Shown here piece after piece: positions 1,838 to 61,563 of a stretch of 64,000 bases of DNA. Source of the DNA: a virus (lineage: Duplodnaviria > Heunggongvirae > Uroviricota > Caudoviricetes); the IMG/VR virus record IMGVR_UViG_2778261035_000005; one strand, written 5' to 3'. The notes beneath the pieces were generated by a model, which was not told where the DNA came from, ran no database searches, and worked only from the letters and a program-made list of their open reading frames with translations. Numbering within the stretch: the first letter of the stretch is position 1; each line of letters starts with the position of its first letter. The position numbers and the translations under genes are program-made.

Positions 1838-3178
1838 ATGACCGAACTTTGCCATACAGGACGCGGGCTGTCCGAAGAGTTTGATGAAGATTTCCAGAAC
1901 AGACTGACGGCATATTTTTGTCGTGATCACGAGTTTCTTACTCGTGCGGGAGATCTGGTTGTGCCTAGCCAATTTGCCAATGCGGCCAATGCCATATTGG
2001 TTAATATGGTTTCGGGCTATTACCGTATGTACAAGAGCGCGCCTTCTTCATCTGCGATTCTGGATATGCTTAAGCGTGCGAAACGCGATAAGACCATCCG
2101 TGAGGAACTCTTCCCGGATGTTGTTGCTGCGTTTAAGCGCATCCTTGCAGAAAAATTGTCTGATACCTCGTACATGGTTGACCAGGTATCCACATTCGCA
2201 AAAAGTGTAGCGTTTGATGATGCTCTGATTAAAGCTGCTGAACTGAAAGAGAAGGGCGACTTTCAGGGGGCGATGGCAATCATGGCCAAGGTTCAGCAGA
2301 TAGGCTCGAACGAAGCGACCGGAATCTATGACTACTACACCTCCGCAAGTGAGCGATTGAAAGCGCGTGAATATGAGGCTTCAGAGGAGTATGTGCCAAA
2401 CAGCATTACAACTGGACTCCCTCTGCTTGATAGATTGCTGTACCAAAAAGGCTGGGCAAAGCGCGAAATGGTGCTCTTCATGGGTTTTGCTAAATCCGGT
2501 AAATCGACCGCAATGGGTGAGTTTTCCATAAACGCAACGCTTGCTGGCTACAATGTTCTGTATCTCTCGCTGGAGGTTCACACCACCATTTTATCCGACC
2601 GTTTTGATGCAAGATTGTCGGAGACAGAAATGTCCAAGCTGGTGGAACGGCGCGATGAGGTTCATCGTAAGTTGGCAGAGTTGGGAGCCACGAAGGGGAT
2701 TGGTAGTTTGTGGGTGGTTGAGCGTCCGTCAGGAAGTATGTCACCGGCAGATCTGGACCGTATGCTTAACAGCATGAAAGCCAACGGCATGGTGCCTGAC
2801 ATGGTTGTTGTCGACTACGCAGATTTGATGCGTGCCAGTTATGACCTTCGTGATGATCGCGCCAACATTCGTAGTATCTACACCGATTTACGTGCTCTTT
2901 ATGACAAGCATAACGTTGCTGGAATAACGGCATCGCAGACAAACCGTGAAGGTGGCGCGTCAGAAGTTGCCACAATGATGCACGCCGCCGACAACATCGA
3001 AAAAGTACGTATTGCTGACCTGGTAATAACGATCAACAAAACCGAAGAAGAAGAAGCGAAAGGAGAGGCTCGTCTCTACTTTGCTGGTTCGCGTAACCAG
3101 CAGGGAGGGATCAGCATTCGCGTTAAACAAAACCTCGAACAAATGCGCTTCATTGAGCGAATCTTAGACGTTACCTAA
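1838..3178 (+). CDS. replicative DNA helicase, DnaB family
   Basis: Walker A GFAKSGKST, Walker B VVVDYADLM, ITASQTNREG motif; conserved aaggaaagcacATG start context. Confidence 0.8.
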   Translation: MTELCHTGRGLSEEFDEDFQNRLTAYFCRDHEFLTRAGDLVVPSQFANAANAILVNMVSGYYRMYKSAPSSSAILDMLKRAKRDKTIREELFPDVVAAFKRILAEKLSDTSYMVDQVSTFAKSVAFDDALIKAAELKEKGDFQGAMAIMAKVQQIGSNEATGIYDYYTSASERLKAREYEASEEYVPNSITTGLPLLDRLLYQKGWAKREMVLFMGFAKSGKSTAMGEFSINATLAGYNVLYLSLEVHTTILSDRFDARLSETEMSKLVERRDEVHRKLAELGATKGIGSLWVVERPSGSMSPADLDRMLNSMKANGMVPDMVVVDYADLMRASYDLRDDRANIRSIYTDLRALYDKHNVAGITASQTNREGGASEVATMMHAADNIEKVRIADLVITINKTEEEEAKGEARLYFAGSRNQQGGISIRVKQNLEQMRFIERILDVT

Positions 3179-10574: not shown

Positions 10575-10649
10575 GATGGTGTAGCTCAGCGGTAGAGCAG
10601 TTGGCTGTTAACCAACTGGTCGGTGGTTCGAATCCACCCACCATCGCCA
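10575..10649 (+). tRNA. tRNA-Asn (anticodon GTT)
   Basis: cloverleaf by hand: acceptor GATGGTG/CACCATC, D-stem GCTC/GAGC, anticodon loop CTGTTAA, T-loop TTCGAAT, CCA end; differs from host-type tRNA-Asn. Confidence 0.85.
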
Positions 10650-10651
10650 AT

Positions 10652-10727
10652 GCCGGTTTAGCTCAGTTGGTAGAGCACCTGCCTTGTAAGCAGGATGTCA
10701 GCGGTTCGAATCCGTTAACCGGCACCA
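10652..10727 (+). tRNA. tRNA-Thr (anticodon TGT)
   Basis: acceptor GCCGGTT/AACCGGC, anticodon stem CCTGC/GCAGG, loop CTTGTAA, T-loop TTCGAAT, CCA. Confidence 0.85.
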
Positions 10728-10940
10728 ACACAACAGGAAAGAGCATTGAGAACCGCCGAGACTGCCCTGTTTGAAGCGTAAGTCCGTGCAAACGTCATAC
10801 AGTGCTCTTTTCGTTGTGGTGAATGCGGCTAAGCGCACGCGGGGAAATGGTTATATTGATCCTTTGTGATGACTATTGGCTCCGTCCACGGTGGATAACC
10901 AGCCAAAGGACACCGGGAAGCACCCGGCACCACAACAATT

Positions 10941-11027
10941 GGAGAGTAGGGAGCATGGTGCTCAAGCGGTCTTGAAAACCGTCCCATTGCGCAAGCGATG
11001 ATGGTTCGATTCCATTACTCTCCGCCA
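10941..11027 (+). tRNA. tRNA-Ser (anticodon TGA), class II with long variable arm
   Basis: acceptor GGAGAGT/ACTCTCC, anticodon loop CTTGAAA, long variable arm, T-loop TTCGATT, CCA. Confidence 0.75.
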
Positions 11028-44466: not shown

Positions 44467-44880
44467 ATGGCAAGAGGTATGTATGTCTTATGCGAAATTG
44501 AAGGTGTGCTGGCAAATACCAGCCATCGTAAATCTGTATCTGACTCGGATGCAGGCCAATTCATTGCCGGTGATGAACTCATTTTCCCCACCAGCCGTAT
44601 GTTGCGTGGTTTTGCTCGCTCAGGGGCTGAAGTGGTGCTTATCAGTAGCCGCTCTGAAACTCTTGAAGCGCCCACTAAACGATGGCTGAAAGATTTTGGT
44701 GTTGATTACGACTGGCTTCATCTCGTACCGAATAGCACTAGTTATGAGAAGCATATTAAGCGCACATTAGCGGAGCATAAAGGCGATCTGCTTATCGCTG
44801 CGCTGGTGCACGATCCTCGACTCCGTGCCGCTTTAGCTGACTCTCATCATAGACCGGTCATCTATGAGGTGAGCAAATGA
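44467..44880 (+). CDS. hypothetical protein
   Basis: in-frame ATG right after thyA stop; end overlaps DHFR start. Confidence 0.45.
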   Translation: MARGMYVLCEIEGVLANTSHRKSVSDSDAGQFIAGDELIFPTSRMLRGFARSGAEVVLISSRSETLEAPTKRWLKDFGVDYDWLHLVPNSTSYEKHIKRTLAEHKGDLLIAALVHDPRLRAALADSHHRPVIYEVSK

Positions 44881-45353
44881 AGATGATAGCTGCTGTTGGC
44901 CGTAACTATGAGATCGGCATAGCGAACGAACTGCCCTGGCGTTGTTCTACCGATCTGAAGCTATTTAAGAGACTCACCAAAAACGCCACTGTCGTTATGG
45001 GGCGTAAAACGATGGAAAGTCTCAAACGCCCTCTTCCAGAGCGTCATAACCTCGTTTTGACGCGCTCTCATGGCTTTGTACCAAATGGATTCTACCCTGC
45101 TGGTGTGGATGATGTGTTGCGATTACCAGAGCCTGTGTGGGTGATTGGCGGGGAACAAATTTACTCGCTATTCATGCCGCATGTTGAAGAGATTTGGCTC
45201 TCCCACATCGGCGTTGATGTGCCAAACGCCGATGCATTCTTCCCGGCAAGCATGATGCGTAATTTAGGCTTTGTGCCTGTTGAAACAGCTTATACCCAAC
45301 GAGCCAGCGAGGAAGAGCCTGGCTTTTCGCAGATCGTATACAGAAGGTCGTAA
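44877..45353 (+). CDS. folA: dihydrofolate reductase
   Basis: MIAAVGRNYEIGIANELPWR, VVMGRKT, WVIGGEQIY. Confidence 0.85.
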   Translation: MKMIAAVGRNYEIGIANELPWRCSTDLKLFKRLTKNATVVMGRKTMESLKRPLPERHNLVLTRSHGFVPNGFYPAGVDDVLRLPEPVWVIGGEQIYSLFMPHVEEIWLSHIGVDVPNADAFFPASMMRNLGFVPVETAYTQRASEEEPGFSQIVYRRS

Positions 45354-59369: not shown

Positions 59370-59749
59370 TGCATAAATCAGTAGCCGGTGAGTTTCAGAA
59401 GGAAGTCGATAATACCACTGATCTATTGGACGATATTTTAAGCATTCTCGCGCTGCTTGAGGCTGGCGATTGGTCAGAACATTGCACTAAAACAGAGCTA
59501 GGCGGTCGGCTTGAAAGAGAGATTACACGACTGATTAGCGATGCCCAAAATGATTTGTCACCTGAGCATCTCCCCTGCGATGTAGTTCTTGTGCCAGGGA
59601 TGAGGATACACGAAGGCGTCAGAACGAAAACATTATTAACCGCATTACAGAGAAGAGTCGAACTAAGCTCGCGGATAAAGTTGATGCCATCCAAAATATT
59701 TGATGTCGTCAAATTTACGCCATCGCAACATACTGAGAGAGATAAATGA
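59366..59749 (+). CDS. hypothetical protein
   Basis: ORF track; overlapping start/stop. Confidence 0.45.
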   Translation: MMHKSVAGEFQKEVDNTTDLLDDILSILALLEAGDWSEHCTKTELGGRLEREITRLISDAQNDLSPEHLPCDVVLVPGMRIHEGVRTKTLLTALQRRVELSSRIKLMPSKIFDVVKFTPSQHTERDK

Positions 59750-60378
59750 GCACGGTAGCGAAAGATCTCACAGAAGATATTCTCAATGAAATTATTGCTG
59801 GTGCAAATACCTCGCTTGAGCAACTTCTTGCGTTAGCACTGAGAGCCGAACGTCGAGACAGAAATCGTTTTTATGAGCGATTACCAGGGAAGCGACCAGA
59901 TAGATCGGATGAAGAAGGTTGCGATATAGACTACATGGAGCCTTCAGAGATTTATCAACTTGGTAAAGATGACGGCTGGAACGCTTATCACGATGCTGTG
60001 ATGAAGTTGGATGAAAAAGTTAAACCTCTTTCTCGACCGGTAGATCACGGTTTCCGCGATAACTGCGAATGCTCTAGTTGCCAGACCACGGCCCGTATTT
60101 GTTCCGAATTGACAGATAAGTCCAGCCTAATCTACGAAGTTAATGTAGGCGGTAATACATGGGTCGAATGCACAAGAGCTGCATACGTAAGAGCAAAAGA
60201 CAAGGGTGAATTAACCAGAGTTGTTGCCCATCACCCAAATAATGAGCTTAAAGATCACCAGATTAGAGAACTGGTGAACGAGTTGCGGGATATTGCGGTT
60301 CAGTACCACGGAACGCAGCAATTGCGGGAGAAAATTGCCAGAGCAGTGAACAACTCAATTAGATCAGAAAGTATGTAG
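59746..60378 (+). CDS. hypothetical protein
   Basis: ORF track; last gene of the plus-strand block. Confidence 0.5.
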   Translation: MSTVAKDLTEDILNEIIAGANTSLEQLLALALRAERRDRNRFYERLPGKRPDRSDEEGCDIDYMEPSEIYQLGKDDGWNAYHDAVMKLDEKVKPLSRPVDHGFRDNCECSSCQTTARICSELTDKSSLIYEVNVGGNTWVECTRAAYVRAKDKGELTRVVAHHPNNELKDHQIRELVNELRDIAVQYHGTQQLREKIARAVNNSIRSESM

Positions 60379-60781
60379 TCAATACAATAAAATGGCCCCA
60401 TTTGGATGGGGCCGGTAACAACTAGCATTATGGGCGCTGGTTGACGTACTCAATGATCGCTTCGATGATTGCGAACATAGGCGGCACGATTTTGAAAAGT
60501 AAGTTAAGCACTATAGGCCTCACTTAGTTTTATCGCACCTAGCTGCAAATACCTTTGAGCTTGCCTTTGCAGTTGCAATATCTGTAGTCGCCAGATACTT
60601 ACGGCACGATTTCGAGTTAAGGTAAGGTTTTAGAGTCACCAAAAACCTGGACTTAAATCTTCTTTGAGAACAACGATGTTTGGTAAATGGTCATTATTAC
60701 CTAGCATGACGGCTCAACGTTTCTTGATGAATCCAGTACATTCGGTTAATCTTAGCTCAGTCGCCAGATACTTATGGCTCA

Positions 60782-60852
60782 GGAACAGAGGCGCAAACTC
60801 TGTTTCCTTTTAAAAAGCCCAGCCTAGTCAACTGGGCTTTTTAATGTCCGTT
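60782..60852 (+). terminator. tandem intrinsic terminators closing an ORF-free region
   Basis: ggaacagag-gcgcaaa-ctctgtttcc-tttt and agcccag-cctagtcaa-ctgggct-ttttt. Confidence 0.6.
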
Positions 60853-61137
60853 TTTAACCAAATGTACCCACAATACCGCAACATCAGTGTCTTGCGAATT
60901 AAGATAGGATTTATAGAGACTATGTGCAAGTGCATAACTTTGTGGATAACTCGTAAAGGAAAAAGTGGTTTCCGCGGACATTAGTTCAGACAAGGAGTCT
61001 GGGAAAGTCAATGGGAAGTAAAAATTTGTTAAAAATAACGTTTGTTGGAATTGTATATATTTATGCCTTTCAATAGTTAGCATCTTATTAACATCTTTTT
61101 TAAGAGATAGAGTTCAAAAATATATAGCTTCAACATA

Positions 61138-61157
61138 TACTGTATGCATATACAGTA
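61138..61157. promoter_or_regulatory. LexA (SOS) box
   Basis: TACTGTATGCATATACAGTA, perfect CTGT-N8-ACAG, 17 bp upstream of the umuD'-like ATG. Confidence 0.75.
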
Positions 61158-61173
61158 TTAAGAGGCGAGTATT

Positions 61174-61563
61174 ATGGGCTTCCCTTCTCCTGCGGCGGAT
61201 TATGCTGAGAGCCGTATTTCTCTTGATCAGCAGATAATTAGACATCCTTCAGCGACCTACTTCATGAGGGCAGCTGATAGTCATCATCGTGAGGGAATAT
61301 TACAGGGTGCATTGCTGGTGGTCGATTCCTCACTTACCCCGGTTGATGGTTCTCTGCTTGTATGCGCTCTGGATGGGGAATATCGCGTAAAAAGATACCG
61401 GAAGTATCCACGTCAGCATCTGGAGGATTTAAGAACCGGTAAGAAGGAAGCATTGCCAAAGGATGACGATGGATGCACGGGCAGCAATGCCGTGTTTGGT
61501 GTGATCACTCACATTATCAACGACGCAAGAAGTGGCGAGTTTGATGATTGTCCCGTGATGTAG
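61174..61563 (+). CDS. UmuD'-like protein (S24 peptidase fold, begins at the position of the UmuD cleavage site)
   Basis: GFPSPAADYAESRISLDQQIIRHPSATYF aligns to UmuD from the cleavage-site Gly; Ser and Lys catalytic positions present; LexA box upstream. Confidence 0.8.
   Translation: MGFPSPAADYAESRISLDQQIIRHPSATYFMRAADSHHREGILQGALLVVDSSLTPVDGSLLVCALDGEYRVKRYRKYPRQHLEDLRTGKKEALPKDDDGCTGSNAVFGVITHIINDARSGEFDDCPVM

What the first reader, a model, noticed from the sequence alone, without database searches (positions are those of the whole stretch)
60379..60852. Repeat-containing ORF-free region closed by tandem terminators at the element end
There are no ORFs of 60 aa or more. A plausible promoter (TTGACG at 60441, 17-bp spacer, GATGAT) precedes ~370 nt containing direct repeats AGTCGCCAGATACTTA (60586 and 60759) and GGCACGATTT (60483 and 60603) and internal hairpins, ending in two consecutive intrinsic terminators (60782-60814, 60826-60852). 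This is consistent with a small regulatory RNA or immunity locus, or with terminal packaging or recombination repeats.
Basis: seen in the sequence. Interest (0 to 1): 0.5.

Follow-up and report, generated by a model that had tools for sequence, protein, structure and literature searches.

The report
Unannotated toxin–antisense RNA addiction module
The "empty" region holds a compact, unannotated type I toxin–antitoxin cassette: a 27-residue membrane peptide gene on the minus strand and a divergent ~88-nt antisense RNA.

Summary
The sequence features are real, but the reading changes. The window is an internal part of a circular SSU5/pHCM2-type phage-plasmid, not an element end.

Positions 60385-60846 form a self-contained ~460-bp cassette. 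Relatives (67-76% identical) lie in unannotated gaps of Citrobacter, Klebsiella, Kosakonia, Enterobacter, Atlantibacter and Cronobacter plasmids.

- **Minus strand:** a structured 5'UTR, an SD, a 27-aa hydrophobic ORF (60511-60428, pN/pS about 0.1-0.4) and an intrinsic terminator.
- **Plus strand:** a conserved promoter (TTGATG-17-TAATCT), then an ~88-nt three-hairpin sRNA (60759-60846).
[quoted passage not shown] Across 20+ lineages the two copies change together. Every difference in the core is a G·U wobble in exactly this strand polarity, and the 3' arm of a target hairpin covaries too.
- **The second repeat (GGCACGATTT):** one copy is an arm of a covariation-supported long-range UTR helix.

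The architecture matches zorO/orzO and dinQ/agrB. Peptide, UTR and sRNA fail the tests for those families, so I call it a new member of a known kind. Transcripts and toxicity are untested.

The parts
60385..60413 (-). Intrinsic terminator of the toxin mRNA: stem-loop GGCCCCATCCAAATGGGGCC (60413-60394), then AUUUUAUU
   Evidence: Terminator scan. A hairpin plus T-run follows the last small ORF in all related loci. It is oriented for the minus strand only.
60428..60511 (-). Toxin ORF, 27 codons plus stop: GTG start, MLNLLFKIVPPMFAIIEAIIEYVNQRP. The ORF listing reports it as 31 aa from an upstream GTG at 60523.
   Evidence: Relatives have ATG at this codon. pN/pS is 0.06-0.4 and variable columns are mostly third positions. 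GRAVY is 0.86, and 1.46 over residues 1-22.
60518..60521 (-). Shine-Dalgarno GAGG, 6 nt upstream of the GTG start
   Evidence: Read from the sequence. An SD-like purine run sits at the same place in relatives.
60483..60492 (-). It is a possible alternative pairing partner of 60532-60539.
   Evidence: Covariation for this alternative helix is weak (68% of cells paired).
60532..60539 (-). 3' arm (GGUGCGAU) of the long-range 5'UTR helix
   Evidence: RNAalifold. The helix has 8 pairs, 5 of them with changes on both sides, and 90.6% of cells paired.
60543..60572 (-). Nearly invariant 5'UTR hairpin CUGCAAA...UUUGCAG with an AGGCAAG...AAGG loop
   Evidence: One lineage (L043) has the compensatory pair CUGUAAA/UUUACAG.
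60578..60598 (-). Target hairpin GUAUCUG[GCGACUA]CAGAUAU. The 5' arm and loop are part of the sRNA target.
   Evidence: The 3' arm covaries with the seed (L010 CACUG/CAGUG, L005 GUUAAC/GUUAAC, L043 GUGUCUG/CAGACAC).
60586..60605 (-). [quoted passage not shown]
60603..60610 (-). 5' arm (AUCGUGCC) of the long-range 5'UTR helix.
60621..60657 (-). 5'-proximal conserved part of the toxin mRNA, with hairpin GGUGA...UUACC (60640-60621). Conservation among relatives begins near 60657; the true 5' end is not mapped.
60724..60752 (+). sRNA promoter: -35 TTGATG (60724-60729), 17-nt spacer, -10 TAATCT (60747-60752)
   Evidence: Across 20 distinct loci the hexamer positions TTGa.g and TAA.cT are conserved while the spacer varies.
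60759..60846 (+). Antitoxin sRNA (~88 nt). The seed is repeat copy 2 (60759-60778, partly in hairpin 60763-60778). Stem-loop 1 is 60781-60808. The terminator hairpin is 60810-60844, followed by U's.
   Evidence: Covariance model R1 hits 60759-60844 at 90.4 bits, with one hit per related locus. 88.9% of cells are paired and 13 pairs change on both sides. Folding z-score is -5.3.

Best explanation
The region is a type I toxin-antitoxin cassette with a divergently transcribed, non-overlapping antisense RNA.

**Minus strand (toxin mRNA).** It has a structured 5'UTR of at least ~145 nt, an SD, a 27-aa hydrophobic peptide ORF (60511-60428) and an intrinsic terminator.

**Plus strand (antitoxin sRNA).** A conserved sigma-70-type promoter drives an ~88-nt sRNA (60759-60846). 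Its first 20 nt are the second copy of the direct repeat. Because the two genes are read from opposite strands, a direct repeat in the DNA makes the two RNAs complementary.

[quoted passage not shown] This site is the 5' arm and loop of a hairpin, next to the 5' arm of a long-range UTR helix.

**Shown here, comparatively:** the ORF is under purifying selection; both RNA structures covary; seed and target co-evolve in the predicted polarity; the cassette moves as a unit.

**Inferred by analogy with tisB/istR-1, zorO/orzO and dinQ/agrB:**
- The peptide is a membrane toxin.
- sRNA binding blocks translation, and/or triggers RNase III cleavage of the ~20-bp duplex. The translational block could be a refolding that frees GGUGCGAU (60539-60532) to pair with the ORF copy of the second repeat and lock the SD/start hairpin.
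- Because the sRNA would decay faster than the mRNA, cells that lose the phage-plasmid would be killed or arrested. This is plasmid addiction; exclusion of competitors is another possibility.
For: **Small ORF.**
- It is conserved in all relatives, with two to three peptide subtypes and tandem pairs in some plasmids.
- pN/pS is mostly 0.06-0.4, and variable columns by codon position 1/2/3 are 8/3/14 and 11/5/17.
- The peptide is hydrophobic.

**Seed and target co-evolution.**
- In 20+ distinct loci the repeat is 19-25 nt, with copies 152-179 bp apart.
- It changes in concert, for example GTCGCCGGTTAACAAC, GTCGCCAGTGTTTTAC and GCTGGCAGACACATAC.
- All copy1-to-copy2 differences inside the 20-nt core are C>T or A>G. 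These are G·U wobbles only if copy 2 is read on the plus strand and copy 1 on the minus strand. There are no reverse-type changes or transversions in the core.
- Three loci found by peptide search alone also carry the sRNA and the repeat.

**Duplex energy.**
- The window duplex is -38.6 kcal/mol against -18.7 ± 2.6 for shuffled seeds.
- The most divergent lineages (L005, L010, L043) pair far better with their own mRNA than with any other. Closer lineages overlap, and a few non-cognate pairs score as well as or better than the cognate one.

**RNA structures.**
- sRNA: covariance-model hits of 44-98 bits, one per locus. 88.9% of cells are paired against 34-60% in slid controls, and 13 pairs change on both sides.
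- 5'UTR: 93.7% paired against 29-48% in slid controls, and 9 pairs change on both sides.
- Strand assignment: G·U against A·C cells are 29 to 7 for the UTR read as minus-strand RNA, and 56 to 21 for the sRNA read as plus-strand RNA.

**Expression signals and context.**
- The sRNA promoter hexamers are conserved while the spacer varies.
- Terminators face outward at both ends of the conserved block.
- The geometry matches published zorO/orzO: complementarity 72-92 nt upstream of the start and a ~180-nt UTR (PMC2887945).
- It also matches pOXA-48 dqlB/agrB: a direct repeat 188 bp apart, a target 68-91 nt upstream, and one wobble (PMC12365149).
- Neighbours in other plasmids are repA, vapBC, phd, RES-Xre and SIR2 genes.
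Against: - No transcript, toxicity or rescue data exist for this cassette.
- The toxin mRNA promoter and 5' end could not be identified with confidence. The best candidate in relatives (TTTACT-17-TTTAGT) is disrupted by a 7-nt insertion in the window lineage.
- The peptide matches no toxin family model.
- The sRNA alignment used for pair counts was fitted to the model, which favours the structure.
- The lineages are related, so counts of wobble-type changes are not fully independent; I estimate about 5-6 independent events.
- The proposed refolding onto the ORF copy of the second repeat has only weak covariation (68% of cells paired).
Confidence: 0.8

Rival explanations
1. An sRNA-regulated small membrane protein that is not a toxin. 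The anatomy is the same, but the peptide has a benign role (for example modulating a membrane protein), so the pair is not an addiction or killing module.
For: All the evidence here concerns conservation and pairing; none concerns toxicity. No toxin family model matches.
Against: The size, the hydrophobic helix with a polar C-terminus, the long structured UTR and the divergent seed-at-5'-end sRNA are the published hallmarks of type I toxins (PMC2887945, PMC8594479). The cassette moves alone between plasmids and sits among other TA and maintenance genes. Some cassettes carry two tandem peptides.
Confidence: 0.1
2. One reading: a single plus-strand non-coding transcript of ~370 nt, from the promoter at 60441 to the terminators. 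It would contain the repeats as internal elements, or act as a cis-antisense RNA covering the small ORF's 5' part.
For: A TTGACG-17-GATGAT motif is present. Similar promoter-like motifs occur at the homologous place in L003 and L004. No plus-strand terminator lies between 60470 and 60810.
Against: The motif lies inside a coding ORF. Its -10 arises automatically from Ile-Ile codons (xATxAT). The helices of 60515-60660 are better paired on the minus strand (93.7% against 87.4% of cells; 29 G·U to 7 A·C). The 383-nt plus-strand fold has z = -2.0, against -5.3 for the 88-nt sRNA alone. The wobble polarity of the repeat requires copy 1 to be read on the minus strand. A conserved promoter sits just upstream of 60759.
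Confidence: 0.05
3. The direct repeats are protein-binding sites (iterons, pac/cos-type or recombination sites) at a prophage end.
For: Two exact 16-nt copies lie 173 bp apart. Concerted change of the copies could in principle track a DNA-binding protein.
Against: The region is internal in a circular replicon. The cassette occurs in phage-plasmids and F-type conjugative plasmids without any shared neighbouring protein gene. The differences between copies are strand-asymmetric wobbles. A third element, the hairpin 3' arm, covaries as an RNA partner.
Confidence: 0.03

Closest known systems
zorO-orzO / zorP-orzP of E. coli O157:H7 (type I TA; Fozo 2010 PMC2887945; Wen 2014 PMC3919570)
   Same: A small hydrophobic peptide of similar size (27 aa here, 29 aa for ZorO). 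A long 5'UTR. A divergent, non-overlapping sRNA whose 5' end carries the pairing region. [quoted passage not shown] Variant seeds that would give target specificity.
   Different: No sequence relationship was detected: hhalign against ZorO (sequence recalled from memory) gives P = 0.34. blastn of the cassette finds only 116 E. coli records, mostly plasmids. zor-orz is chromosomal, whereas this cassette is borne by phage-plasmids and conjugative plasmids. Some relatives here encode two tandem peptides downstream of one UTR.
dinQ-agrB and the plasmid-borne dqlB-agrB (Kristiansen 2016 PMC5066626; pOXA-48 study PMC12365149)
   Same: A 27-31-aa peptide. A trans-acting divergent sRNA. A direct DNA repeat that gives the pairing. 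For dqlB, location in an unannotated plasmid gap near repA and proven addiction function. A published mechanism of mutually exclusive UTR helices with sRNA-induced SD sequestration and RNase III cleavage, which resembles what the second repeat suggests here. Weak similarities: sRNA model R1 hits agrB and agrA at their annotated coordinates (23.7 and 20.6 bits), and the terminator loop resembles that of pOXA-48 agrB.
   Different: The NCBIfam DinQ and DqlB models do not match (DinQ control). Rfam AgrB does not match. The UTR covariance model and nhmmer find nothing in the dinQ or dqlB loci. There is no LexA box in the cassette. The pairing region is 20-25 nt, against 31-35 nt.
tisB-istR-1 (SOS-induced type I TA of E. 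coli)
   Same: A divergent sRNA that pairs far upstream (~100 nt) of the toxin start in a structured 5'UTR. This description is from established knowledge.
   Different: No LexA box. The hhalign similarity to TisB (sequence recalled from memory) is not meaningful (P = 0.0027). No IstR match appeared in the Rfam scan.
Ldr/Fst superfamily toxins
   Same: A proline early in the helix. An aromatic residue followed by N-K/Q-R at the C-terminus; relatives of subtype B end in W-K-[ND]-R, which is the published 'W plus charged cluster' signature (PMC2887945). This was the best of the hhalign comparisons: LdrD P = 8e-4 and LdrA P = 1.4e-3 (Ldr sequences recalled from memory).
   Different: No Pfam Ldr or Fst hit at E ≤ 10. 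The hhalign probabilities are only 17-25%. Rdl is a cis-encoded, overlapping antisense RNA, whereas here the sRNA gene lies upstream and is divergent.

Membership tests
Type I toxin-antitoxin systems (class) | A small (under 60 aa) hydrophobic peptide gene, real and conserved | tested here: met
   A 27-aa ORF is conserved in all relatives. pN/pS is 0.06-0.4 and the peptide is hydrophobic.
Type I toxin-antitoxin systems (class) | A small antisense RNA gene with its own promoter and terminator, and at least 15 nt of complementarity to the toxin mRNA | tested here: met
   Shown in silico only. Conserved promoter; covarying three-hairpin sRNA; a 20-nt duplex of -38.6 kcal/mol maintained by concerted change.
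Type I toxin-antitoxin systems (class) | The peptide is toxic on overexpression, and the sRNA neutralises it through base pairing | not testable with these tools
   This needs induction and rescue assays with compensatory mutants.
Zor/Orz | ZorO/ZorP-like peptide and locus sequence | tested here: not met
   hhalign P = 0.34 (ZorO sequence recalled from memory). blastn against 5,426 E. coli genomes hits only 115, nearly all on plasmids.
Zor/Orz | Divergent sRNA with its seed at the 5' end, and a target ~70-90 nt upstream of the start in a long UTR | tested here: met
   The target is 75-94 nt upstream, against 72-92 nt in PMC2887945.
DinQ/Dql-AgrB | Peptide matches the DinQ or DqlB models / signature residues | tested here: not met
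   No NCBIfam hit at E ≤ 10 for 7 peptides. The DinQ control hits NF041472 at 1e-14. hhalign gives DinQ P = 0.24 and DqlB P = 0.0075.
DinQ/Dql-AgrB | 5'UTR sequence and structure similar to dinQ (the criterion of PMC5066626) | tested here: not met
   UTR covariance model R2 finds nothing above noise in the dinQ or pOXA-48 dqlB loci. nhmmer finds nothing in the dinQ locus.
DinQ/Dql-AgrB | sRNA belongs to AgrB (Rfam RF02891) | tested here: inconclusive
   RF02891 does not hit the window at E ≤ 10. It also misses the experimentally validated pOXA-48 agrB. In reverse, model R1 hits agrB and agrA at 23.7 and 20.6 bits, which is within the range of terminator-driven noise. Terminator similarity to pOXA-48 agrB scores 12.8 bits.
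DinQ/Dql-AgrB and TisB/IstR-1 | LexA (SOS) box at the toxin promoter | tested here: not met
   The only CTGT-N8-ACAG match (up to 1 mismatch) near the cassette is at 61140-61155, upstream of the humD-like gene.
Ldr/Fst | Match to the Ldr or Fst toxin models; W plus a charged cluster after the helix | tested here: inconclusive
   No Pfam hit. hhalign gives LdrD P = 8e-4 (probability 25%), LdrA P = 1.4e-3 and Fst P = 0.06. The W-K-x-R tail occurs in subtype B relatives; the window peptide ends in Y-V-N-Q-R-P.
Hok/Sok | A ~50-aa Hok peptide with an overlapping mok frame, and a cis-antisense Sok | tested here: not met
   No Pfam or NCBIfam Hok hit. The upstream 40-aa frame is broken in relatives by indels that are not multiples of three. 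No Sok match appeared in the Rfam scan of the region.

The most novel reading that the evidence does not exclude
This is a previously undescribed family of type I toxin-antitoxin cassettes that moves horizontally as a ~460-bp unit between SSU5-type phage-plasmids and F-type conjugative plasmids.

- The antitoxin seeds have diversified into several specificity classes, which could let co-resident or competing plasmids kill independently.
- The mRNA may use an sRNA-triggered helix exchange: the UTR copy and the ORF copy of the second repeat compete for one partner, closing the ribosome-binding site.
- Some members encode two different toxins under one sRNA.
- The family may be an ancient offshoot that links DinQ/Dql-AgrB-type RNAs with Ldr-like peptides.
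Probability: 0.45. Interest if true: 0.6.

Novelty: new member of a known kind. Interest (0 to 1): 0.5.

Why it matters
Phage-plasmids of the SSU5/pHCM2 type and F-like plasmids carry resistance and virulence genes, and their persistence depends on addiction modules.

This cassette is missed by current annotation:
- PGAP annotates nothing here in 116 E. coli records.
- The peptide is virtually absent from a library of 1.84 billion representative proteins.

It may therefore be an unrecognised stability determinant, and possibly an exclusion determinant. The dqlB-agrB module of pOXA-48, found in 2025 in a similar 'empty' gap, is a precedent.

The cassette also argues against the older view that type I systems with trans-acting sRNAs are chromosomal and not horizontally mobile. 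It offers a natural series of co-varying seed, target and hairpin triplets for studying antisense specificity. Practically, the sRNA is a candidate handle for plasmid-curing strategies.

Tried and rejected
- **Rfam.** The gathering-threshold scan of the whole window found only two tRNAs. The E ≤ 10 scan of 60250-61250 gave only weak, terminator-driven matches (RNAI at 21.6 bits and others).
- **tRNA/tmRNA.** None in the region.
- **Xer/cer-type resolution site and hok/sok.** Considered from reading the sequence. I saw no ATAA-N6-TTAT core, and there is no Hok-like peptide.
- **mok-like upstream ORF (60642-60520, 40 aa).** Rejected, because relatives have 1-, 2- and 4-nt indels in it. One database protein (P0003, 56 aa) is such a read-through call.
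- **Plus-strand 49-aa ORF (60664-60813).** It lies in the most variable, indel-rich part of the cassette.
- **Other peptide look-ups.** PHROGs and PADLOC gave no hits. The exact-sequence look-up found only 'hypothetical' or 'uncharacterized' names. phmmer against 1.84 billion representative proteins gave two real hits.
- **Literature search.** Peptide strings gave nothing.
- **P0003 locus.** Its contig is cut at the gene, so it could not serve as an out-of-sample test.
- **Toxin promoter.** Consensus scans in the window and three relatives gave no conserved minus-strand promoter.
- **First guess of element type.** I first took the element for P1/D6-like. This was corrected to SSU5/pHCM2-like after reading the plasmid's annotation.

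Full report
**1. Where the region lies**

The tested stretch (60300-61180) is 100% identical to the circular 110-kb E. coli plasmid pWP4-S18-ESBL-07_2. It is 99.9% identical to pECOH89-like plasmids and 91-95% identical to the phages Cyrano and CMS-2020a.

That plasmid encodes dnaE, recA, nrdAB, thymidylate synthase, dfrA51, RepB, apbC and metG. From this gene content I infer an SSU5/pHCM2-type phage-plasmid; pECOH89 is cited among such elements in PMC7969092.

The finding region sits inside an ~800-bp stretch between a hypothetical gene (59746-60378) and a umuD/humD-like S24 peptidase gene (61174-61563). The latter has a LexA box at 61140-61155. Neither PGAP nor the phage record annotates anything in this stretch. 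It is therefore not an element end.

**2. The observation**

- The 16-nt repeat extends to 20 nt with one mismatch, at 60586 and 60759. Expectation is 0.01 matches per window.
- GGCACGATTT extends to 14 nt with one mismatch, at 60482 and 60602.
- The TTGACG-17-GATGAT motif is present.
- The 3' hairpins are present.
- No ORF of 60 aa or more lies inside the region.

**3. Relatives**

A sensitive blastn search found 67-76%-identical copies of 60515-60850 in unannotated gaps of plasmids from Kosakonia, Citrobacter and Klebsiella. A conserved-motif scan added 2 genome loci and 29 viral-contig loci. A tblastn search with the peptide added plasmids from Enterobacter, Atlantibacter, Leclercia and Cronobacter.

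Some hosts are non-mobilizable elements resembling phage-plasmids. Others are F-type conjugative plasmids. Neighbouring genes include repA, vapBC, phd, RES-Xre, SIR2 and Hha genes.

Conservation starts at a hairpin at 60394-60413 and stops just after the hairpin at 60810-60844. The unit that moves is therefore ~460 bp.

**4. A small gene on the minus strand**

Every relative encodes a 25-28-aa hydrophobic peptide on the minus strand, downstream of an SD-like sequence and followed by a minus-strand terminator.

In the window the peptide is MLNLLFKIVPPMFAIIEAIIEYVNQRP. It has a GTG start at 60511, where relatives have ATG, and GAGG lies 6 nt upstream. Other subtypes are M(Q/H)MLLLFLKLAHPVTVIIMTLLGFWKNR and MLLLLFIKLLHPVVSIIMILLEFWKQR. 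Several plasmids carry two different peptides in tandem.

Substitutions are mostly synonymous. pN/pS is typically 0.06-0.4. Variable columns by codon position are 8/3/14 and 11/5/17.

The peptide matches nothing in Pfam, NCBIfam, PHROGs or PADLOC. It is almost absent from protein databases.

**5. A small RNA gene on the plus strand**

Upstream of repeat copy 2, the hexamers TTGa.g and TAA.cT are conserved across 20 distinct loci while the 17-nt spacer varies. This places a start at about 60759.

From there to the U-tract the RNA folds into three hairpins (z = -5.3).

A covariance model built from 14 sequences finds exactly one copy per locus. This includes loci not used to build it and loci found only through the peptide (E from 1e-7 to 2e-19).

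On the resulting alignment, 88.9% of cells pair, against 34-60% for slid controls. Thirteen pairs change on both sides. The caveat is that this alignment was fitted to the model.

The hairpin at 60781-60808 is followed by U's only in the window lineage. The conserved terminator is 60810-60844.

**6. What the repeats are**

Across lineages the two copies change in concert. Examples are ...AGATACTTA..., ...AGATACATT..., ...GGTTAACAAC..., ...AGTGTTTTAC... and GCTGGCAGACACATAC.

Inside the 20-nt core, every difference between the copies is C>T or A>G from copy 1 to copy 2. These are exactly the changes that keep a G·U pair when copy 2 is plus-strand RNA and copy 1 is minus-strand RNA. No reverse-type change or transversion occurs in the core.

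The window duplex is -38.6 kcal/mol, against -18.7 ± 2.6 for shuffled seeds. The most divergent lineages pair far better with their own mRNA than with any other, while closer lineages overlap.

In the mRNA the target forms the 5' arm and loop of a hairpin. The 3' arm of that hairpin covaries with the seed, so three elements change together.

The UTR consensus structure is 93.7% paired, against 29-48% in slid controls, with 9 pairs changed on both sides.

G·U cells outnumber A·C cells 29 to 7 for the UTR read as minus-strand RNA, and 56 to 21 for the sRNA read as plus-strand RNA. This assigns each half of the cassette to its strand. It also argues against one long plus-strand transcript.

**7. 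The second repeat**

The UTR copy of GGCACGAT (60603-60610) is the 5' arm of a long-range helix with 60532-60539. That helix has 8 pairs, 5 of them with double changes.

The ORF copy (60483-60492, codons K-I-V-P) can pair with the same partner. Minimum-free-energy folds of several lineages choose this alternative, particularly when the sRNA target is blocked. In it, the SD and start codon are enclosed in a hairpin.

Covariation for the alternative helix is weak, at 68% of cells paired. I therefore treat the helix-exchange idea as a hypothesis. It mirrors the published dinQ mechanism of mutually exclusive helices and agrB-induced SD sequestration (PMC5066626).

**8. Comparison with known systems**

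The architecture is that of the Gram-negative type I systems with an upstream, non-overlapping antisense RNA: ShoB/OhsC, TisB/IstR-1, Zor/Orz and DinQ/AgrB (PMC8594479). The distances nearly coincide with zorO/orzO (PMC2887945). They also nearly coincide with what I measured in pOXA-48 dqlB/agrB.

Membership tests failed or were inconclusive.
- No DinQ or DqlB HMM hit (control).
- No Rfam AgrB hit. That model also misses the validated pOXA-48 agrB.
- The UTR covariance model and nhmmer find nothing in the dinQ or dqlB loci.
- No LexA box lies in the cassette.
- ZorO gives P = 0.34.
- The best peptide resemblance is to Ldr (P = 8e-4, probability 25%). This is not much better than TisB (P = 0.0027).
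- In reverse, my sRNA model hits agrB and agrA at their annotated coordinates, at 21-24 bits. The sRNA terminator loop resembles that of pOXA-48 agrB. These scores lie within the range of terminator-driven noise.

A distant common origin with DinQ/Dql-AgrB is therefore possible but not shown. I could not see the DqlA sequences of the 2016 paper.

**9. Verdict**

With about 0.8 confidence, the region is an unannotated type I toxin-antitoxin cassette. It is a new member of a known kind.

Unresolved points:
- the toxin mRNA promoter and 5' end;
- whether the promoter-like motif inside the ORF drives an extra cis-antisense RNA;
- toxicity and biological role.

Noticed in passing
window 61138-61157 (core CTGT-N8-ACAG at 61140-61155): A perfect LexA box, TACTGTATGCATATACAGTA, lies 17 nt upstream of the umuD/humD-like S24 peptidase gene (61174-61563). 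This is an SOS-regulated gene immediately beside the cassette, but the cassette itself has no such box.
   Followed up: partly
window 60925-61175: The ~250 bp just upstream of the humD-like gene are 83-87% identical to P1, P7 and SJ46 (the P7 upf91.4-91.7 region), although the rest of the element is SSU5-like. This looks like a mosaic joint between phage-plasmid families. An 80-aa minus-strand ORF (61083-60841) runs into the sRNA terminator.
   Followed up: partly
window 60441-60469 (+); L003 1729-1758; L004 2904-2933: A sigma-70-like motif antisense to the toxin ORF recurs at the homologous position in three diverged lineages. Its -10 is produced automatically by Ile-Ile codons. A second, cis-antisense RNA is not excluded.
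   Followed up: partly
L003 ~1620-1850, L005 ~2800-3040, L006 ~2790-3030, also L008 and L021: In several plasmids the cassette encodes two different small hydrophobic peptides in tandem (subtype B followed by subtype A). Each has its own SD, and they sit downstream of a single UTR and a single sRNA target.
   Followed up: partly
L053 8391-8604 (pOXA-48, NC_019154.1 58391-58604): The validated dqlB-agrB module shows the same geometry as the window cassette. A 22-24-nt direct repeat, GGGAACA[C/T]CTAAACAATTGACG, has copies 188 bp apart. The target lies 68-91 nt upstream of the ATG. The single difference between copies is again a G·U wobble. Rfam's AgrB model does not detect this agrB.
   Followed up: yes
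window 10575-11027: Three tRNA genes (Asn-GTT, Thr-TGT, Ser-TGA) are clustered on the plus strand of the phage-plasmid.
   Followed up: no
window ~44877-45353, if colinear with NZ_AP022089.1 87293-87769: The matching plasmid record annotates a trimethoprim-resistant dihydrofolate reductase, DfrA51, inside a nucleotide-metabolism block (nrdAB, thymidylate synthase). This was read from the record, not verified in the window.
   Followed up: no
P0003 / L047 2-172: A 56-aa database protein is a gene-caller fusion of the conserved 5'UTR frame with the peptide ORF (...KASPRVFAARHEKISETT-MVNLIFKIVPP...). This shows how the real 27-aa gene gets mis-called when it is called at all.
   Followed up: yes
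L009 (JAEWTL010000044.1, labelled 'Bacillota bacterium' MAG): A 29.6-kb contig of a Bacillota metagenome bin carries a cassette 92% identical to the E. coli one. This is probably a mis-binned enterobacterial phage-plasmid contig.
   Followed up: no
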